Positions 2,612-43,715 of a DNA stretch of 64,000 bases are shown in pieces (position 1 is the first letter of the stretch; each line of letters opens with the position of its first letter). The translations under genes and the position numbers were made by a program. The DNA is from a virus. The DNA lies in the IMG/VR virus record IMGVR_UViG_3300050147_000032; one strand, given 5' to 3'. The notes under the pieces were generated by a model that saw only the letters and a list, made by a program, of their open reading frames with translations, had not been told where the DNA came from and searched no databases.

Positions 2612-3736
2612 TTATTCGGCATTCTTCTGGAGATCGTTGAAGCCAAATTCTTTGTATTTGCGCTTCATGAAATCCTTATAATCATTGCTTCGACCGATGT
2701 AAAGATTCATCACCAAACCAAAAAGCAAGTCATTGATATCTGCCTTCATCTTGATAGCAAAGTCCTTACGAACAAGATGTTTGTTATCTTCGTATGCTTT
2801 TTCTACAGTATAGACAACATGATTGTAAAGAGTCGATACCTTCTCTTGCATATCATCGATTGTTTTCATTGCAAGAGCATCAGTAGCAAACATCGAACGC
2901 AGATCGTCAACACCTTCATCCAAGATACATTCATAAAGTCGACGAGGATTATTAATCGAATCCTTTGCATGATGCAGACTGATATATTTGTCAGTCTTGA
3001 TCTTCACTCGTTGACCATTTTTCATCACAAAGATGAAACCTTCGATATCATCGAGCATCGAAGGGACTTGCTCGATGAATTCCTTATGAGACAAACCGGA
3101 TTGCATGTTAACTAGTGCGTTCATCCATTCAGAAAACCACAAATCGATGTATCCTTTAAGATTCCAGTCAACTTGAATAACGTCAATAGAATTAAGAACA
3201 ATCAGACGTGGTTCCAAGTAGCCTAATACGATGCGATTCCAAGGAGCAACCCATTCCAAATTGACCGTATTACCGTGAACTTCGGCTGATTTAAGTTTCT
3301 TTTTCAAATCAGCATTTTCTGGTTGATCGAGCCACTTCATTGCATCAATAGCTTGCTCAGAGAACAGAGAACCTTTGCTCTTCAATCGAAGTTCACCGTT
3401 ATGCATGTAAGTCGACATCAATGAGCCATCAGACTTAACTTCAATCCAATCAATCTCATTCAGATCAAGATTCATCGTCATTGGATTCTCATTGATGTTG
3501 AAGAACTTTGGCATAGGCAAAGATGCCAAACGCACACAGTCGCCGTCCTTCGTAACTTCAAACATCGTACCACGACACCACAAAGCACCCGGCAACATGA
3601 AATCGGTATAAGTTGCCAGCCGATAGTTGAAGATCCAGTAGATCTTATCATCCAGCAAGAATTCTTGCTTATAGAAAGCTTCGGTTTCTTTCGTCAGCTT
3701 AACGAGTTGGTCAAACAATTCAATCTGCTTATTCAT
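2612..3736 (-). CDS. rnlA: RNA ligase 1 (T4 Rnl1/gp63-like)
   Basis: IFNYRLATY, CRGTMFE, MPKFFNINEN, motif I EVKSDGSL, EGFIF, KIKTDKY. Start moved to the ATG at 3736 behind a GGAG RBS. Confidence 0.92.
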   Translation of the reverse strand: MNKQIELFDQLVKLTKETEAFYKQEFLLDDKIYWIFNYRLATYTDFMLPGALWCRGTMFEVTKDGDCVRLASLPMPKFFNINENPMTMNLDLNEIDWIEVKSDGSLMSTYMHNGELRLKSKGSLFSEQAIDAMKWLDQPENADLKKKLKSAEVHGNTVNLEWVAPWNRIVLGYLEPRLIVLNSIDVIQVDWNLKGYIDLWFSEWMNALVNMQSGLSHKEFIEQVPSMLDDIEGFIFVMKNGQRVKIKTDKYISLHHAKDSINNPRRLYECILDEGVDDLRSMFATDALAMKTIDDMQEKVSTLYNHVVYTVEKAYEDNKHLVRKDFAIKMKADINDLLFGLVMNLYIGRSNDYKDFMKRKYKEFGFNDLQKNAE

Positions 3737-4087: not shown

Positions 4088-4357
4088 TTATTCCAGTCCC
4101 AAGACAGCTCGATCTTCTTTGGACAACTTAGAAAGTGCCTTCAGTCGTTTTTGTTGATTCAAAAACATATCAACATCTTCTGGAGTCTCACAAATCAAAA
4201 GAGTCTTTGATGTGAATGAACTATCCAGATATGATGGACACTTGCTAACCCAATGATTAGCAGCATACATCGTTGAGCAGTAGCCAATCGTATAAGATGT
4301 GATGCCAACACCATCAGCTTCTTTGATTTCGCAGTATTCAAGTTTAATTTCTCGCAT
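4088..4357 (-). CDS. Hypothetical protein
   Basis: 89-aa ORF with GGAG RBS, tightly packed with neighbours. Confidence 0.65.
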   Translation of the reverse strand: MREIKLEYCEIKEADGVGITSYTIGYCSTMYAANHWVSKCPSYLDSSFTSKTLLICETPEDVDMFLNQQKRLKALSKLSKEDRAVLGLE

Positions 4358-4367
4358 AAAGATCTCC

Positions 4368-4811
4368 TTAAAATTTCATAAACATACCACAGATCGCATT
4401 CCCGCAATTAGCTGTCCCTGTCTTATTCAGACTCGAATTCCTGATCAAATCAAATATAAAAGACATAGCCGAACTATTATCTTTACACTGCATATCAAAC
4501 AAAGCTTTGTTCTCAGGAGTAACCAAAGATTTCATTTCTTCAAGTGTCAAAGTATTTTTGTTGATAACGGCAATATTTTTGTCGTATTGTTTCTGGCAAG
4601 CAAAACCAAATTCTTCTTCGGTCATTGGTTTGATATTTCTTTCCAATGCAATCGCAAAAGCAGCATTGAAAGCTTTCTTCGAAGAATATGCAAGCTTTGC
4701 ATAGCCAGAATGATATCCAACGAGATATTTTCCTTCTGTTTCTTTTGCAAAAGAAACGTGCTGAGCACCAGTCATTTCTTTTGCTGTCAATACAATAATA
4801 TGCTTGGCCAT
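4368..4811 (-). CDS. Hypothetical protein
   Basis: ORF starting at the ATG of the repeated promoter/RBS cassette. Confidence 0.65.
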   Translation of the reverse strand: MAKHIIVLTAKEMTGAQHVSFAKETEGKYLVGYHSGYAKLAYSSKKAFNAAFAIALERNIKPMTEEEFGFACQKQYDKNIAVINKNTLTLEEMKSLVTPENKALFDMQCKDNSSAMSFIFDLIRNSSLNKTGTANCGNAICGMFMKF

Positions 4812-4844
4812 AACAATCTCCGTTATCACAATAAAGTGATTATA
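4809..4844 (-). promoter_or_regulatory. 36-bp promoter/leader/RBS cassette, copy 2
   Basis: Identical to 3734-3769; contains TATAAT and GGAG. Confidence 0.8.
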
Positions 4845-15355: not shown

Positions 15356-15431
15356 TGGGGATTAGCTCAGTTGGTAGAGCAGTAGATTTTGATTCTACGT
15401 GTCATTGGTTCGAATCCAATATCCCTTGCCA
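15356..15431 (+). tRNA. tRNA-Gln(UUG)
   Basis: GTAGA-TTTTGAT-TCTAC anticodon arm, TTCGAAT T-loop, G73, CCA. Confidence 0.95.
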
Positions 15432-19730: not shown

Positions 19731-20010
19731 TTTTATTGTTATGAAGATAAATCCTTAGGATATATCATGAACATCGAATTTGTTTCAATTACGTCAAATA
19801 TGAATTCTAATCAATTGATAAATGATAGGATTCATTCTTTGTATTTGCATTGTCAAGAACACATGCAACGTCAGATTGATGGAGGCATTGCCGGTAAGCC
19901 AATCTCAGAATTGTACTCCGCTAGGCTCGAATTATGTCAGTATTCTAACTGGGTGATTGATGCAGAGGAAGACGACATGGATGAAGATGATCTTGACATC
20001 GATTTTTAGA

Positions 20011-20120
20011 GGGTGTGCTCTGGTGAGGTGTATGCATGGTGAGTAGCCATAGGAGCATTAACTGACATGTAGCCATACTGTTAGGGGGCAATTTGGGTTC
20101 GATTCCCAACATATCCACCA
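20011..20120 (+). ncRNA. 110-nt tRNA-like RNA with Ala identity elements (mini-tmRNA-like)
   Basis: GGGTGTG/CATATCC acceptor with G3:U70, A73, CCA; T-arm TTGGG-TTCGATT-CCCAA; no D stem or canonical anticodon arm. Confidence 0.7.
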
Positions 20121-20137: not shown

Positions 20138-20467
20138 ATGAGCGAAAGAAAAACAGTTACTTCCAATGTTCATTTGTTTGGGACATATGAAAAATTCACA
20201 TTTGATGATCTTTTTGAACGTCTACAAACAGAAATCATAGATCGTCCTGAAATTGATCCTCAAACAATCAAATTTGGGATTGAAGAAGAACGATACGATT
20301 ATACTGATGGATCATATTTCTATTTCGCAATGTATTACGATCGTCCAGAGACAGATCAGGAATATCAAACCAGAATTGATCGAGAAAACAATAGGAAAGT
20401 TGATCAAGAAGAACGAGATCGTCGAGAATTTGAACGACTCCAAAAGAAATTTGGAGAAAAGGCTTGA
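20138..20467 (+). CDS. Hypothetical protein
   Basis: ATG at 20138 after a GAGGA RBS. Confidence 0.7.
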   Translation: MSERKTVTSNVHLFGTYEKFTFDDLFERLQTEIIDRPEIDPQTIKFGIEEERYDYTDGSYFYFAMYYDRPETDQEYQTRIDRENNRKVDQEERDRREFERLQKKFGEKA

Positions 20468-20500
20468 TCTTTCTTTGAAGTTGTTGTATAATTGATTTAT

Positions 20501-20577
20501 CGGTAGTTAGCTCAGTTGGTTAGAGCGGAGAACTCTAAATTCTTTGGTCATCGGTTCGAATCCGATACTACCGGCCA
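20501..20577 (+). tRNA. Amber suppressor tRNA (anticodon CUA)
   Basis: CGGTAGT/ACTACCG, canonical D and T arms, GAGAA-CTCTAAA-TTCTT, G73, CCA. Confidence 0.9.
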
Positions 20578-20584
20578 TGATTGA

Positions 20585-20724
20585 AAATTTTAGCGCAGAT
20601 GTTGGCAATTGGTTAGCCAGCTCTTGGGAGGTGGATGCAAGGTCCATCGAAGTGTCTTCTCGAAAGAGTGCCAAGTGCATAAGACATGATGTCAGTTCGA
20701 TTCTGGCCTTCTACGCTAAAATTT
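20585..20724 (+). ncRNA. Expanded tRNA-like RNA with a multibranched centre
   Basis: AAATTTTAGCG/CGCTAAAATTT outer stem, D-arm TGGC-AATTGGTTA-GCCA, T-arm GTCAG-TTCGATT-CTGGC, several internal hairpins. Confidence 0.7.
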
Positions 20725-21115
20725 CTTATTACGGAGATTGTAATGAAAACAAATCTTGAACTTGATACAAAGAAATTTCTGCTGAGCAGTTTGGGTCGAA
20801 TGATTCAGAGTTATGATTATGCTTATCCTAACAGTAGGCTAGATAAGGATCGAGCACATGTTGCATTATGTGCAATCAAAGCTCAGATTGATGTACTGCA
20901 GAATTTCTTGAATGCAATGAACGAGCAGAAGAATACGTCCTCCTCGGATTGAATCCTTAAGATTTAATGTGGATGCTTTACCAATCGAGTAAGGTAAAGA
21001 CGCAAAGAGTACGCGCTATAAAGAGGCTGTGGTAAGCCGCTAGTAACTCCAATGAAAGAAGTTCAAAAGAAGACTTTCTATGAAATTGCCCGATTTGTTA
21101 CCGTAAGTAACTTAT

Positions 21116-21190
21116 GCTTCCATCGTCTAAAGGTAGGACAGCGGATTTTCGATCCGCTAATTGCGAGTTCAATTCTCCATGGAAGTACCA
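21116..21190 (+). tRNA. tRNA-Glu(UUC)
   Basis: GCGGA-TTTTCGA-TCCGC, CCA; weak T stem. Confidence 0.88.
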
Positions 21191-21216
21191 TTTAACCATC
21201 AACAAAAGGAAAGAAA

Positions 21217-21558
21217 ATGCGATCGTAGATCAACAAAGAAAAGACTTGGGTGTATGTGTTTATTCGGAAGGATCTTCCAATAGAACAAATCATTGTGCAG
21301 ACAGCACATGCAGCCTTGGAGTCTGGAATCCATCTAAAACACGATAAAGAAAACGAACCATCTTCTCTGATTGTTCTTCAAGTGAAGAATCAAAAGGAAC
21401 TAGAAAAAGCTTATGAGAAGCTTAAAGATTCTGGAATCGAACTGATAAAGTTCTTTGAACCAGACTGGGATTATGGATTTACATCGTTTGCTTCTGAACC
21501 TGTAACACAAGAACACAGGAATAAATTCAAGAAGTATCGTCTTTTTAATGGAGGTTGA
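21217..21558 (+). CDS. Peptidyl-tRNA hydrolase (Pth2-like) with in-frame TAG at codon 4
   Basis: VFIRKDL...VQTAHAA...LIVLQVKNQKEL fits the PTH2 fold. AAGGA RBS precedes ATG CGA TCG TAG, in frame with the rest of the ORF. Confidence 0.75.
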
Positions 21559-21560
21559 TC

Positions 21561-22115
21561 ATGTATGCATAGACTTTTGATGATCTGATTGCAAAGATGC
21601 AATCGTGTTACCAATTTGAAAATATCAACATGTTGGATCATGGGAAGATGGTTGCTTCATCGTATGATGAATTGATCGATCAACTTGAATCTGGAACTCA
21701 TGAAATCCAATTGTTGAATGATTTATATGAACTACTGAAGAATAATCTTGTTGATTCTTTAGCAATCAGAAGATATCAAGTCTATCATGACTGTGGAAAA
21801 CCTTTCTGTGAACCTACAGAAGAACGGAAGTATCCAGATCATGCTAGACATTCTTCTGAACAATGGTTGACTCTTTTCCCTGAAGATGTTGACATTGCAG
21901 AGTTGATGAGGCTTGATATGGTCTTTCATGAAGGAGCTGATGAATCTTTTTATCATCATAGACTTGCTCCTACATTGTATTTGACTGCATGGGCGGAGAT
22001 CTATGCGAATTGTCAGATGTTTGGTGGAACGAATTCGACATCTTTCAAGATCAAGAAAAAGAAGTTGATTCAACAAGGTAAGAAATTCATTAAGCACTTG
22101 ACTAAACAAGAGTAA
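21561..22115 (+). CDS. HD-domain phosphohydrolase-like protein with in-frame TAG at codon 4
   Basis: LDHG...YHDCGKP...PDHA...DMVFH. GGAGG RBS precedes ATG TAT GCA TAG, in frame with the 21597 ORF. Confidence 0.7.
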
Positions 22116-22149
22116 CATGTTAAAATTGACACATACCGAAACATAATAG

Positions 22150-22392
22150 GTGAACATTATGAGCAAACAATTTACTGAAGATGACATCAAAGTTTGGAAA
22201 TCTATGATCGGCGAAAAGGTTTGGAAGAATCCAAAAACAACATCTAAATTTCAACCAAAGCCTTTCAAGTCTGGTTTGAAAGTGAATACGGTCAAAGATG
22301 TTGTTCAACATGATCATACTGTAAATCTTGCATTCGTGTTTCATGAAGATGAATCTCAGGTTGAATGTTGGCGTTGTAGCATTGCGCCATAA
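22150..22392 (+). CDS. Hypothetical protein
   Basis: 80-aa ORF. Confidence 0.6.
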   Translation: MNIMSKQFTEDDIKVWKSMIGEKVWKNPKTTSKFQPKPFKSGLKVNTVKDVVQHDHTVNLAFVFHEDESQVECWRCSIAP

Positions 22393-43218: not shown

Positions 43219-43715
43219 AATTGCTTATCGTCGGACATGGACGACATGGAAAAGATACCGTATCAGCGTACTTGAAAGAAAAGTATACTCTTGATTTTTT
43301 ATCAAGTTCAGAATTTTGTGCAGAGAATGTAATCTTTCCGGTACTATCCGAAAAGTACAGCTATAAAACTGTTCAAGAATGTTTCGATGATCGTCATAAT
43401 CATCGAACAGAATGGTATAATTTGATTCATGCTTACAATGAAATCGATCATGCAAGACTTGGACGTGAGATTTTTTCCAAATACGATATCTACTGTGGAC
43501 TTCGGAACGCCAAAGAAATGATTGCAATGAAAGATCAACATGTTTATGATCATGCAATCTGGGTTGATCGATCGGAACATCTCCCTTCAGAAGATATTTC
43601 GTCTATGACGATTTCTAAAGATATGTGTGATATCGTCATTGATAACAATGGAACATTGGATGAATTGTATGAAAAAATCGATGACATGATGAAGATCTTC
43701 TTGACTTCTGACTAG
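43215..43715 (+). CDS. Deoxynucleoside monophosphate kinase-like P-loop protein
   Basis: IVGHGRHGKDTV, GLRNAKE, DIVIDNNGTL. Confidence 0.75.
   Translation: MKLLIVGHGRHGKDTVSAYLKEKYTLDFLSSSEFCAENVIFPVLSEKYSYKTVQECFDDRHNHRTEWYNLIHAYNEIDHARLGREIFSKYDIYCGLRNAKEMIAMKDQHVYDHAIWVDRSEHLPSEDISSMTISKDMCDIVIDNNGTLDELYEKIDDMMKIFLTSD

What the first reader, a model, noticed from the sequence alone, without database searches (positions are those of the whole stretch)
20501..22115. Amber-gated operon: suppressor tRNA(CUA) plus two adjacent genes each with TAG at codon 4
Seen in sequence: a canonical tRNA with anticodon CTA (20501-20577). About 640 nt downstream, AAGGA-RBS ATG CGA TCG TAG (TAG 21226-21228) runs in frame into the Pth2-like ORF. 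The next gene, GGAGG-RBS ATG TAT GCA TAG (TAG 21570-21572), runs in frame into the HD-domain ORF. Two consecutive genes with the same stop at the same codon position is unlikely by chance. The genome is not globally recoded: long ORFs are intact in code 11 and TAG ends gp62 and the kinase at 43715. Established: very short minigenes such as lambda bar cause peptidyl-tRNA drop-off that Pth must resolve. Inference: a translational switch in which these proteins are made only when the phage suppressor tRNA is intact and charged, or when termination is impaired.
Basis: partly seen in the sequence, partly recalled or inferred. Interest (0 to 1): 0.87.

Follow-up and report, generated by a model that had tools for sequence, protein, structure and literature searches.

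The report
Suppressor-tRNA-gated phage tRNA-repair genes
A large phage carries a tRNA that reads the stop codon UAG, followed by two tRNA-end-processing genes that each have UAG as their fourth codon; this lock-and-key pairing recurs in dozens of phages, so the genes are probably translated only when that tRNA works.

Summary
A canonical tRNA(CUA) lies at 20501-20577. Two adjacent genes start SD-ATG-2 codons-TAG and continue in frame: a Pth2-fold hydrolase and an HD-superfamily protein. They are the only such cases in the 97-kb record, which otherwise uses the standard code. Four metagenome runs hold the stretch without a single difference.

The early stop is conserved. Of 67 distinct Pth2-like and 59 HD-like phage genes, 50 and 25 carry an in-frame stop, at codon 2-4 in 67 of those 75. 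Stop type follows the phage's suppressor tRNA: TAG with CUA, TGA with UCA. Many relatives have no start codon after the TAG until past the catalytic motif, so read-through is needed. GenBank truncates or misses the gene in cultured phages (CBB, Serratia BF, Arash).

Best reading: a suppressor-tRNA-dependent translational gate on two enzymes that probably act on tRNA acceptor ends. Its purpose is unknown and nothing here is experimental.

I found no paper describing it; the XacN1 paper says the targets of its CUA tRNAs could not be found. This scan has already noted the Pth2 module in at least 32 other genomes. New here: the HD-like gene is a second, widespread client with the same stop-anticodon match.

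The parts
20464..20492 (+). Promoter-like site (TTGATC-17 nt-TATAAT, 10 of 12) directly upstream of the suppressor tRNA. It may drive the tRNA and the two gated genes.
   Evidence: Consensus match only; the number of such matches in the region is not above that in shuffles.
20501..20577 (+). Amber-suppressor tRNA, anticodon CUA (20535-20537), discriminator G73, encoded CCA. This is the 'key'.
   Evidence: ARAGORN. Rfam tRNA 69.3 bits. Closest of the window's 16 other tRNAs is the phage's own tRNA-Gln(UUG) at 15356-15431, score 32 against 18 for the next.
21206..21210 (+). Shine-Dalgarno AAGGA, 6 nt before ATG 21217.
   Evidence: No SD precedes GTG 21250.
21217..21558 (+). Pth2-like (peptidyl-/aminoacyl-tRNA hydrolase fold) gene, 113 codons, with in-frame TAG at codon 4 (21226-21228).
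   Evidence: Pfam PF01981, 29.1 bits against a cut-off of 23. AlphaFold model pLDDT 87, TM 0.80 to archaeal Pth2 3erj. The early stop is conserved in 50 of 67 distinct homologues.
21550..21554 (+). Shine-Dalgarno GGAGG (GGAGGT), 6 nt before ATG 21561.
   Evidence: No SD precedes ATG 21597.
21561..22115 (+). HD-superfamily gene, 184 codons, with in-frame TAG at codon 4 (21570-21572). Its fold is closest to tRNA-acceptor-binding helical/HD modules.
   Evidence: Conserved H27, H76-D77, H94, D119, H123. Model pLDDT 94.6 with helix 6-14 upstream of Met13. Z 13.4 to 3wfo_A residues 250-448, and Z 9-11 to the GlyRS beta HD domain. The early stop is present in 25 of 59 distinct homologues.

Best explanation
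The tRNA(CUA) and the two genes form a lock-and-key translational gate. Ribosomes start at the SD-led ATGs (21217 and 21561) and meet UAG at codon 4. With only the host's machinery, RF1 ends translation after a tripeptide. When the phage's tRNA(CUA) is made, processed and charged by a host synthetase, it decodes the UAG and the full-length proteins are produced. Its body suggests charging with Gln.

Both proteins are predicted to act on or bind tRNA acceptor ends, so this would be a small tRNA-maintenance regulon whose output tracks the activity of the phage's own suppressor tRNA.

What is shown here is the anatomy, its conservation, the stop-anticodon match, the lack of alternative starts in relatives, and the two folds. 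What is inferred is that the tRNA is expressed, charged and decodes these UAGs.

The purpose is my guess. It could be a delay or AND-gate that ties these enzymes to functioning phage tRNAs. It could also be a feedback loop in which the enzymes limit the suppressor. The early position would keep the aborted product to 1-3 residues and place the inserted residue where its identity hardly matters.
For: (1) The anatomy is exact and unique in the record.

(2) Conservation. Relatives at 53-83% protein identity keep ATG + 2-6 codons + TAG in both genes while the flanking codons change. Of 67 distinct Pth2-like genes, 48 have an early TAG and 2 an early TGA. Of 59 HD-like genes, 23 have TAG and 2 TGA. 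The stop is at codon 2-4 in 67 of those 75.

(3) Stop-anticodon match. Among the distinct early-TAG genes, 38 of 48 Pth2-like and 14 of 23 HD-like have a tRNA-CUA within the roughly 12-kb locus, often 30-650 nt upstream. Whole-record scans found a CUA tRNA elsewhere in four more genomes. Every early-TGA case has a tRNA-UCA in its genome: L027, L045, L035 (two copies) and L039. No early-TAG locus has a UCA tRNA. L027 (TGA/UCA) is sister to L028 (TAG/CUA) in the Pth2 tree, support 96/89.

(4) Read-through is obligatory in relatives. In L007-L010, L012, L014, L015, L018-L026 and L041 no ATG, GTG or TTG follows the TAG for about 30 codons or more, which is past the invariant VQxxHA motif.

(5) The segment between the TAG and the downstream start is coding. 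It shows synonymous third-position changes with a conserved K-T-W. Strand 1 of the Pth2 model starts at residue 10. Helix 6-14 of the HD model has pLDDT 97. HD homologues without a stop start MYAT.../MIYPNTFEEL... from the same SD-led ATG.

(6) The base after the stop is A in 54, G in 19, C in 2 and T in 0 of 75 cases. From memory (Bossi 1983; Miller and Albertini 1983), a 3' purine favours nonsense suppression.

(7) The tRNA is canonical at 69.3 bits.
Against: - Nothing is experimental. I have no data on tRNA expression or charging, or on peptides spanning the UAG.
- In this window both genes do have in-frame downstream starts (GTG 21250, ATG 21597). Met13 of the HD family is nearly invariant. 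Some reinitiation product therefore cannot be excluded here.
- TAG ends 9 of 149 rough ORFs in this record, so an efficient suppressor would have a read-through cost.
- One complete relative (L008's genome, 357,873 bp) keeps the TAG but has no CUA tRNA matching my two loop-to-T-arm patterns. Three more genomes (those of L029, L084 and L090) also lack one, but they are 4-58% complete.
- L043 has a CUA tRNA and a normal Pth2 start, although its HD gene carries the TAG.
- The 'Q' at the TAG column in database homologues is an artefact of code-15 gene calling. It says nothing about the inserted residue.
- A gate could be built more cheaply, so the purpose is unexplained.
Confidence: 0.75

Rival explanations
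1. The tripeptide ORFs (MRS*, MYA*) are tiny upstream ORFs. The real proteins start at GTG 21250 and ATG 21597 by reinitiation or coupling after termination at the UAG. On this reading the suppressor tRNA plays no part.
For: Both downstream starts are in frame and close, 21 and 24 nt after the TAG. Gene callers pick downstream starts (P0003 and P0123). Met13 of the HD family is nearly invariant.
Against: No SD precedes either downstream start. Many Pth2 relatives have no start codon for about 30 codons or more after the TAG. The skipped residues are conserved (K-T-W; TF[DE][DE]L) and lie inside predicted secondary structure. The rival does not explain why the stop is always TAG or TGA and never TAA, or why it matches the anticodon of the phage's suppressor tRNA.
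Confidence: 0.12
2. The phage reads TAG as a sense codon throughout (genetic code 15). These two TAGs are simply the ones visible in an incomplete record.
For: A phage-encoded tRNA(CUA) is the hallmark of code-15 phages (bioRxiv 10.1101/2021.08.26.457843). TAG is the rarest stop here, 9 of 149. The record is only 44% complete by CheckV.
Against: Only two in-frame TAGs occur in 97 kb, both at codon 4. TAG closes ordinary ORFs. Reading TAG as sense lengthens ORFs less than reading TGA or TAA as sense. Cultured carriers such as CBB, GAP32 and Arash are annotated under code 11, and there the gene is truncated or missed.
Confidence: 0.05
3. The UAG works as a sensor of termination capacity, on the logic of prfB. 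Read-through, and so enzyme output, rises when RF1 activity falls or ribosomes stall at stops. The suppressor tRNA only sets the gain.
For: The products belong to translation and tRNA recycling. A close relative has a truncated RF1-type gene (PxT motif PPT, GGQ) with its own in-frame TGA directly upstream of the gated Pth2 gene. tmRNA genes lie near the module in L038, L041, L042 and L046.
Against: No RF-like gene is in this record. Neither product is known to recognise stop codons. The reading rests on analogy alone. It is a refinement of the best explanation, not a replacement for it.
Confidence: 0.06
4. The TAGs are recent nonsense mutations (dying genes) or assembly errors.
For: Two small accessory genes in a tRNA island could be dispensable.
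Against: Four runs show zero differences. The same early stop occurs in 75 distinct genes from many lineages, with purifying-type variation around it.
Confidence: 0.02

Closest known systems
Stop-codon recoding in phages with phage-encoded suppressor tRNAs (TAG to Gln, 'code 15'; crAss-like, Lak and Agate phages; Borges et al., bioRxiv 10.1101/2021.08.26.457843; Peters et al. 2022, PMC9523058)
   Same: A phage-encoded tRNA(CUA) decodes in-frame UAG in a host that uses the standard code. The proposed role is to make translation of certain genes depend on the phage's own tRNA.
   Different: In those phages tens to hundreds of TAGs are scattered through late, structural and lysis genes, and TAG is largely given up as a stop. 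Here the genome keeps the standard code. Only one to three small genes carry the stop, always within the first few codons, and the clients are tRNA-processing enzymes rather than late genes.
prfB (release factor 2) autoregulation through an early in-frame UGA
   Same: An early in-frame stop in a translation-related gene makes output depend on competition at that stop.
   Different: prfB needs a +1 frameshift, and its own product recognises the stop. Here the frame is unchanged, decoding is by a dedicated tRNA, and the products are not release factors.
Laboratory and natural amber suppressors (supE-type tRNA-Gln CUA; T4 psu mutants)
   Same: A class I tRNA with anticodon CUA and a Gln-like body (G73, G2:C71, G3:C70, G10).
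   Different: Classical suppressors are mutant alleles that rescue accidental nonsense mutations. This tRNA is a conserved wild-type gene paired with conserved, positioned stops.
Orphan suppressor tRNAs of standard-code jumbo phages (XacN1, PMC5852040; Atu_ph07, PMC6102473)
   Same: The same kind of phage, with a tRNA island, a CUA or UCA tRNA and a peptidyl-tRNA hydrolase gene.
   Different: Those papers looked for targets by reading through stops at gene ends. The XacN1 paper reports that no target could be identified. The early stops upstream of annotated starts were not considered.
Lambda bar minigenes
   Same: SD + AUG + 1-3 codons + stop. Pth is the enzyme that relieves minigene toxicity.
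   Different: Bar minigenes stand alone and act by sequestering a specific tRNA as peptidyl-tRNA. Here the frame continues into a conserved protein, the leader peptide is not conserved, and the stop matches a suppressor tRNA's anticodon.

Membership tests
Pth2 peptidyl-tRNA hydrolase family (PF01981) | Match to the family profile above the curated cut-off | tested here: met
   PF01981 E 1.3e-6, 29.1 bits against a cut-off of 23, residues 12-76.
Pth2 peptidyl-tRNA hydrolase family (PF01981) | Pth2 alpha/beta fold | tested here: met
   Model pLDDT 87. Foldseek gives TM 0.64-0.80 to 3erj, 2zv3, 1wn2, 1q7s and 1xty, with E down to 9e-6.
Pth2 peptidyl-tRNA hydrolase family (PF01981) | Orthology with archaeal Pth2 (NCBIfam equivalog cut-off) | tested here: not met
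   TIGR00283 scores 22.5 bits against a cut-off of 82; NF003314 scores 21.7 against 126. It is a divergent phage subfamily, so I call it 'Pth2-like'.
Pth2 peptidyl-tRNA hydrolase family (PF01981) | Hydrolysis of peptidyl- or aminoacyl-tRNA | not testable with these tools
   The VQxxHA and D-x-G-x-T-like motifs are conserved, but activity and substrate are unknown.
HD-domain metal-dependent phosphohydrolase superfamily | Profile match to the Pfam HD domain | tested here: not met
   No HD family among the Pfam hits at E up to 1. No NCBIfam hit. Only phrog_14850, of unknown function.
HD-domain metal-dependent phosphohydrolase superfamily | Conserved H...HD...H...D metal-binding residues | tested here: met
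   H27, H76, D77, H94, D119 and H123 are invariant in 44 sequences.
HD-domain metal-dependent phosphohydrolase superfamily | All-helical HD fold | tested here: met
   VIA-align gives Z 13.4 (160 residues, 3.4 A) to 3wfo_A 250-448, and Z 8-11 to the GlyRS beta HD domain, PPX/GppA, PhnZ, PgpH, OxsA and HD-GYP proteins. Foldseek is weak, E 0.016. For helical proteins, Z near 13 is borderline.
Code-15 (TAG to Gln) recoded phages | Phage-encoded tRNA(CUA) | tested here: met
Code-15 (TAG to Gln) recoded phages | Many in-frame TAGs across genes; TAG largely abandoned as a terminator | tested here: not met
   Two in-frame TAGs in 97 kb, and TAG ends 9 of 149 rough ORFs.
Functional amber suppressor tRNA (supE type) | Canonical cloverleaf with anticodon CUA | tested here: met
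   ARAGORN and Rfam, 69.3 bits; anticodon loop CUCUAAA.
Functional amber suppressor tRNA (supE type) | Glutamine identity | tested here: inconclusive
   It is closest to the phage's tRNA-Gln(UUG) and has G73, G2:C71, G3:C70 and G10, but a C1:G72 pair. Suppressors of other lineages have A73 or G73. The 'Q' in database homologues is a calling artefact.
Functional amber suppressor tRNA (supE type) | Expressed, aminoacylated and decoding UAG in vivo | not testable with these tools
   No RNA run holds the stretch.
prfB-type autoregulatory recoding site | Programmed +1 frameshift at the in-frame stop | tested here: not met
   The frame is unchanged across the TAG in both genes.
Lambda bar-type minigene | Stand-alone 2-3-codon ORF whose effect depends on the last sense codon's tRNA | tested here: not met
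   The frame runs on into a conserved protein. The leader codons vary freely among relatives.

The most novel reading that the evidence does not exclude
The suppressor tRNA and its two clients form a closed, self-referential circuit. The Pth2-like and HD-like enzymes would act on the acceptor end of the suppressor tRNA itself, or on tRNAs damaged at the 3' end by host toxins. Read-through of UAG would then both require and be limited by their activity. That would be a natural, self-tuning orthogonal decoding device, and a minimal precursor of full TAG recoding in phages.
Probability: 0.15. Interest if true: 0.9.

Novelty: new variant of a known kind. Interest (0 to 1): 0.74.

Why it matters
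- **Clients for orphan suppressor tRNAs.** It gives concrete targets for the suppressor tRNAs of standard-code phages. The XacN1 authors stated this as an open point: they could not find targets.
- **A natural orthogonal switch.** It is a gene-specific translational switch made of one tRNA and one codon, of interest to synthetic biology. It is also a possible first step on the path to whole-genome TAG recoding.
- **Annotation.** The gene is truncated or missing in GenBank records of cultured phages, and the tRNA is labelled Pyl or Phe. Gene callers that switch to code 15 on short contigs put a false Q into protein databases.
- **A shared regulon.** This window shows that an HD-superfamily protein with a tRNA-binding-type fold shares the same lock. 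That points to a small regulon acting on tRNA acceptor ends.

Tried and rejected
- **Gln at the TAG column.** I first took the Q at the TAG column of the database homologues as evidence that Gln is inserted. The DNA shows that those proteins were called with TAG=Q, so I withdrew the argument.
- **More gated genes in this record.** ATG-TAG at genome 29,653, and candidates on the minus strand at 17.7 kb and 76 kb, have no SD and no coherent continuation.
- **RF-like gene in this record.** None found.
- **Relatives in cellular genomes.** A pattern scan of 185,579 species genomes found none encoding a relative. The scan relies on one peptide pattern, so this is weak evidence of absence.
- **Near-identical phage records.** Only tRNA-Thr fragments matched.
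- **Third and fourth client families.** L030:5631 and L048:5314 have no Pfam hit and no similarity to the HD family.
- **RNA evidence.** No RNA run holds the stretch.
- **Promoter and terminator scan.** The counts are no better than in shuffles.
- **Whole-genome regulon count in phage Arash.** I fetched only the first 50 kb and did not pursue it.
Full report
**1. The observation**

The window holds 17 tRNA genes. One of them, at 20501-20577, has anticodon CTA at 20535-20537. It scores 69.3 bits against the Rfam tRNA model, where the gathering score is 29.

Two adjacent genes follow, starting 640 nt downstream:
- AAGGA (21206-21210) is followed after 6 nt by ATG CGA TCG TAG (TAG at 21226-21228). 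The frame stays open through GTG 21250 to TGA 21556-21558.
- GGAGG (21550-21554) is followed after 6 nt by ATG TAT GCA TAG (TAG at 21570-21572). The frame stays open through ATG 21597 to TAA 22113-22115.

The window is bases 19264-83263 of a 96,962-bp IMG/VR virus record with 38% G+C, which CheckV rates 44% complete.

I scanned the whole record for SD + ATG + at most 15 codons + stop + at least 70 open codons. Only these two TAG cases came up. Three TAA/TGA hits fall in non-genic frames. A second scan for any other TAG-interrupted gene gave nothing convincing.

In my rough ORF set TAG closes 9 of 149 ORFs, and code 11 gives about 90% coding density. Reading TAG as sense lengthens ORFs less than reading TGA or TAA as sense. 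The genome is therefore not globally recoded.

Twenty-four leaf-litter metagenome runs hold the stretch. Contigs from the four I laid cover 20450-22150 with no difference at depth 27-319. These runs may include the source sample.

**2. What the two genes encode**

Gene A, read through the TAG, matches Pfam PTH2 above its cut-off (29.1 bits against 23). Its AlphaFold model (pLDDT 87) superposes on archaeal and human Pth2 structures with TM 0.64-0.80. It falls far below the NCBIfam equivalog cut-offs, so I call it Pth2-like.

Gene B has no Pfam or NCBIfam hit. It does have invariant H27, H76-D77, H94, D119 and H123, and its model is confident (pLDDT 94.6). An exhaustive structural search gives these best matches:
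- 3wfo_A, residues 250-448, which the entry titles a tRNA processing enzyme: Z 13.4, 160 residues, 3.4 A. The Swiss-Prot search names the same kind of hit as the C-terminal part of CC-adding and A-adding tRNA nucleotidyltransferases.
- The HD domain of the bacterial GlyRS beta subunit: Z 9-11.
- Many HD phosphohydrolases: Z 7-10.

Foldseek alone is weak (E 0.016). I read gene B as an HD-superfamily protein of a tRNA-acceptor-binding type. Its substrate is unknown.

**3. The early stop is conserved**

Logan contigs with HD proteins 53-70% identical to the window's carry the same feature:
- Pth2-like gene: ATG ACT ATG TAG, or ATG CAA TCG TAG.
- HD-like gene: ATG TAT GCA TAG, or ATG ACA CAT CAA TAC GCA TAG.

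In one of these contigs (L005) the two genes are not adjacent, and a tRNA-CUA sits directly upstream of the Pth2-like gene.

Two scans of IMG/VR gave 43 Pth2-like and 57 HD-like loci. After removing duplicates:

| Family | Distinct genes | Early TAG | Early TGA | No early stop |
|---|---|---|---|---|
| Pth2-like | 67 | 48 | 2 | 17 |
| HD-like | 59 | 23 | 2 | 34 |

The stop is at codon 2-4 in 67 of the 75 cases. An unbiased scan of all fetched loci for the same pattern found 33 TAG, 9 TGA and 1 TAA hits. All the TAG hits, and five of the nine TGA hits, fall in these two families or in two further small families of unknown function next to a suppressor tRNA (L030:5631 with TAG, L048:5314 with TGA).

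An alignment of eight diverged Pth2 starts shows ATG and TAG invariant. The codons between them vary freely. The codons after the TAG vary mostly at third positions (GAA/GAG, AAG/AAA, ACT/ACC, TAT/TAC, CGG/AGA/CGT), as expected of translated sequence.

The carriers include cultured phages: Pectobacterium CBB, Cronobacter GAP32, Serratia BF, Yersinia fHe-Yen9-04, Acinetobacter ME3, Ralstonia RsoM2USA and Salmonella Arash.

**4. The stop matches the phage's suppressor tRNA**

- Among the distinct early-TAG genes, 38 of 48 Pth2-like and 14 of 23 HD-like have a tRNA-CUA within the roughly 12-kb locus, often 30-650 nt upstream.
- For four more early-TAG genomes a whole-record scan found the CUA tRNA elsewhere (L037, L075, L085, L089).
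- The two Pth2 genes with an early TGA (L027, L045) each have a tRNA-UCA directly upstream.
- The two HD genes with an early TGA (L035, L039) come from genomes with two and one tRNA-UCA respectively.
- No early-TAG locus has a UCA tRNA.
- Pth2 loci without any early stop mostly lack a suppressor tRNA. Where one is present, as in L043, the HD gene carries the stop.
- In the Pth2 tree, L027 (TGA/UCA) is sister to L028 (TAG/CUA) with support 96/89, so stop type and anticodon have switched together at least once between close lineages.

Exceptions:
- The complete 357,873-bp genome of L008 keeps the TAG, but no CUA tRNA matched my two loop-to-T-arm patterns. A tRNA-Arg(CCG)-like gene sits at the syntenic place.
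- Three further genomes (those of L029, L084 and L090), 4-58% complete, also lack a detected suppressor.

**5. Read-through against reinitiation**

In this window a ribosome could in principle restart at GTG 21250 or ATG 21597. Four observations argue against this as the main route.

- Neither start has an SD. Both upstream ATGs do.
- In many Pth2 relatives (the CBB-like group, the Arash-like group, L018-L020, L041) no ATG, GTG or TTG follows the TAG for about 30 codons or more. That is beyond the invariant VQxxHA motif.
- The residues that would be skipped are conserved and structured. The K-T-W motif and the start of strand 1 (residues 10-17) lie there in the Pth2 model. Helix 6-14 of the HD model has pLDDT 97.
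- HD homologues without a stop start MYATNFDDL... or MIYPNTFEEL... from an SD-led ATG at the same place.

Reinitiation also leaves the stop-anticodon match unexplained. The nearly invariant Met13 of the HD family means a minor reinitiation product cannot be ruled out for gene B.

**6. Which residue is inserted**

Of the window's other tRNAs, the phage's own tRNA-Gln(UUG) at 15356-15431 is by far the most similar to the suppressor (score 32 against 18 for the next). The two share the D arm, most of the T arm, G73, G2:C71, G3:C70 and G10. Gln is therefore the likeliest residue, as in supE-type suppression (recalled knowledge).

I first took the Q at the TAG column of the database homologues as support. 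The DNA shows that those proteins were called with TAG=Q, so that argument is withdrawn.

The 54 distinct suppressors I collected are diverse. Most have the loop CUCUAAA, and their discriminator is A or G, so the inserted residue may differ between lineages.

**7. Context**

The base after the stop is A in 54, G in 19, C in 2 and T in 0 of 75 cases. From memory (Bossi 1983; Miller and Albertini 1983), a 3' purine, above all A, favours nonsense suppression. Amino-acid preference at that position and shared ancestry may also contribute to the bias.

A promoter-like site (TTGATC-17-TATAAT) lies at 20464-20492, and no terminator-like site lies on the + strand before the two genes. The scan is no better than shuffles, so this is weak evidence.

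**8. How it most likely works**

The tRNA(CUA) is the key and the codon-4 UAGs are the locks. Without the tRNA, RF1 releases a tripeptide. With it, the full proteins are made.

- *Shown:* the anatomy, its conservation, the stop-anticodon match, the lack of alternative starts in relatives, and the two folds.
- *Inferred:* that the tRNA is expressed and charged and that it decodes these UAGs.

The early position has simple advantages: the aborted product is tiny, the identity of the inserted residue hardly matters, and nothing functional leaks.

I cannot tell why these enzymes are gated. Three possibilities remain open:
- a delay or AND-gate that ties them to functioning phage tRNAs;
- a feedback loop in which they act on the suppressor's own acceptor end;
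- a prfB-like sensor of RF1 capacity.

A relative, L001, has a truncated RF1-type gene directly upstream of the gated Pth2 gene. It has the PxT motif as PPT and a GGQ motif, lacks domain 1, and carries an in-frame TGA at codon 36. Four loci have tmRNA genes nearby. Both facts point to a module concerned with translation termination and rescue. This record has no RF-like gene.

**9. What is known**

Phage stop-codon recoding with suppressor tRNAs is well described (PMC9523058). It concerns many TAGs in late genes of phages that largely give up TAG as a stop. I found no paper that describes gene-specific early stops paired with a suppressor tRNA. No paper in the library holds Pth2, phage and suppressor tRNA together. 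The library lacks most subscription journals.

The XacN1 paper reports two CUA tRNAs and a peptidyl-tRNA hydrolase, and states that no targets could be identified by reading through terminal ambers. The Atu_ph07 paper reports a UCA tRNA and Pth genes but names no specific target.

GenBank records reflect the gap:
- CBB_406 starts 90 nt into the domain, and the tRNA is labelled tRNA-Pyl.
- The Serratia BF and Erwinia pEa_SNUABM records have no feature under the match.
- Arash splits the gene and labels the CUA tRNA as tRNA-Phe.

This scan's own notes show the Pth2 + suppressor module flagged in at least 32 other genomes. One first-reader note describes an HD + Pth2 pair. I reached the same reading before consulting those notes, and they are not independent evidence. 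One note was later re-priced at 85/100 for what was seen and 20/100 for the bold 'self-contained switch' reading. I keep the same separation here.

**10. Verdict**

The module is a new variant of phage stop-codon recoding: minimal, gene-specific and position-fixed.

What this window adds to the scan's earlier notes:
- a second, widespread client family, the HD-like gene, with the same TAG/CUA and TGA/UCA match;
- structural evidence that both clients belong to tRNA acceptor-end biology;
- cultured phages in which the claim can be tested directly.

Confidence that the UAGs are decoded by the phage tRNA is about 0.75. Confidence in any particular purpose is low.

Noticed in passing
L001:2903-3574 (Logan contig, close relative of the window): A truncated RF1-type release-factor gene sits directly upstream of the TAG-gated Pth2-like gene. 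It best matches prfA positions 107-332, has the PxT motif as PPT and a GGQ motif, and lacks domain 1. It has an in-frame TGA at codon 36, in the same frame. No counterpart exists in this window's record.
   Followed up: partly
window 19900-20120: Weak Rfam match to the 3' part of tmRNA (12.8 bits, E 0.023), just upstream of the suppressor tRNA. Complete tmRNA genes lie near the module in L038, L041, L042 and L046.
   Followed up: no
L008 (IMG/VR record of 357,873 bp, 100% complete), tRNA at L008:9902-9977: This CBB/GAP32-like phage keeps ATG GCT CAC TAG in its Pth2-like gene. No CUA tRNA matched my two loop-to-T-arm patterns anywhere in the record. At the place where its relatives have the CUA tRNA there is a tRNA-Arg(CCG)-like gene.
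   Followed up: partly
L030-L032:5631-5996 and L048:5314-5919: Two further small protein families have an early cognate stop: 'MK*IDNIENACYLGGGC' with TAG, and 'MT*QHNYDL' with TGA about 50 nt after a tRNA-UCA. Neither has a Pfam hit or any similarity to the HD-like family.
   Followed up: partly
L106 (KU574722, CBB) 4501-4824; L107 (OQ632216, Arash) 2989-3321 and 4307-4381: GenBank annotation misses the module. CBB_406 is truncated and the tRNA is labelled tRNA-Pyl. The Arash Pth2 gene is split into two CDS, and its CUA tRNA is labelled tRNA-Phe. Serratia BF and several Erwinia phage records have no CDS at all under the match.
   Followed up: yes
Proteins P0124, P0131 and P0134 (loci L154-L157): These public-database proteins carry Q where the DNA has TAG, because the gene caller switched to code 15 on short contigs. 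This silently hides the in-frame stop in protein-level searches.
   Followed up: yes
L025:11135-11213 (= L067:10828): An ochre-type tRNA (anticodon UUA) lies in the same tRNA island as the CUA tRNA. I found no gene with an early TAA.
   Followed up: partly
I did not inspect the letters.
   Followed up: no
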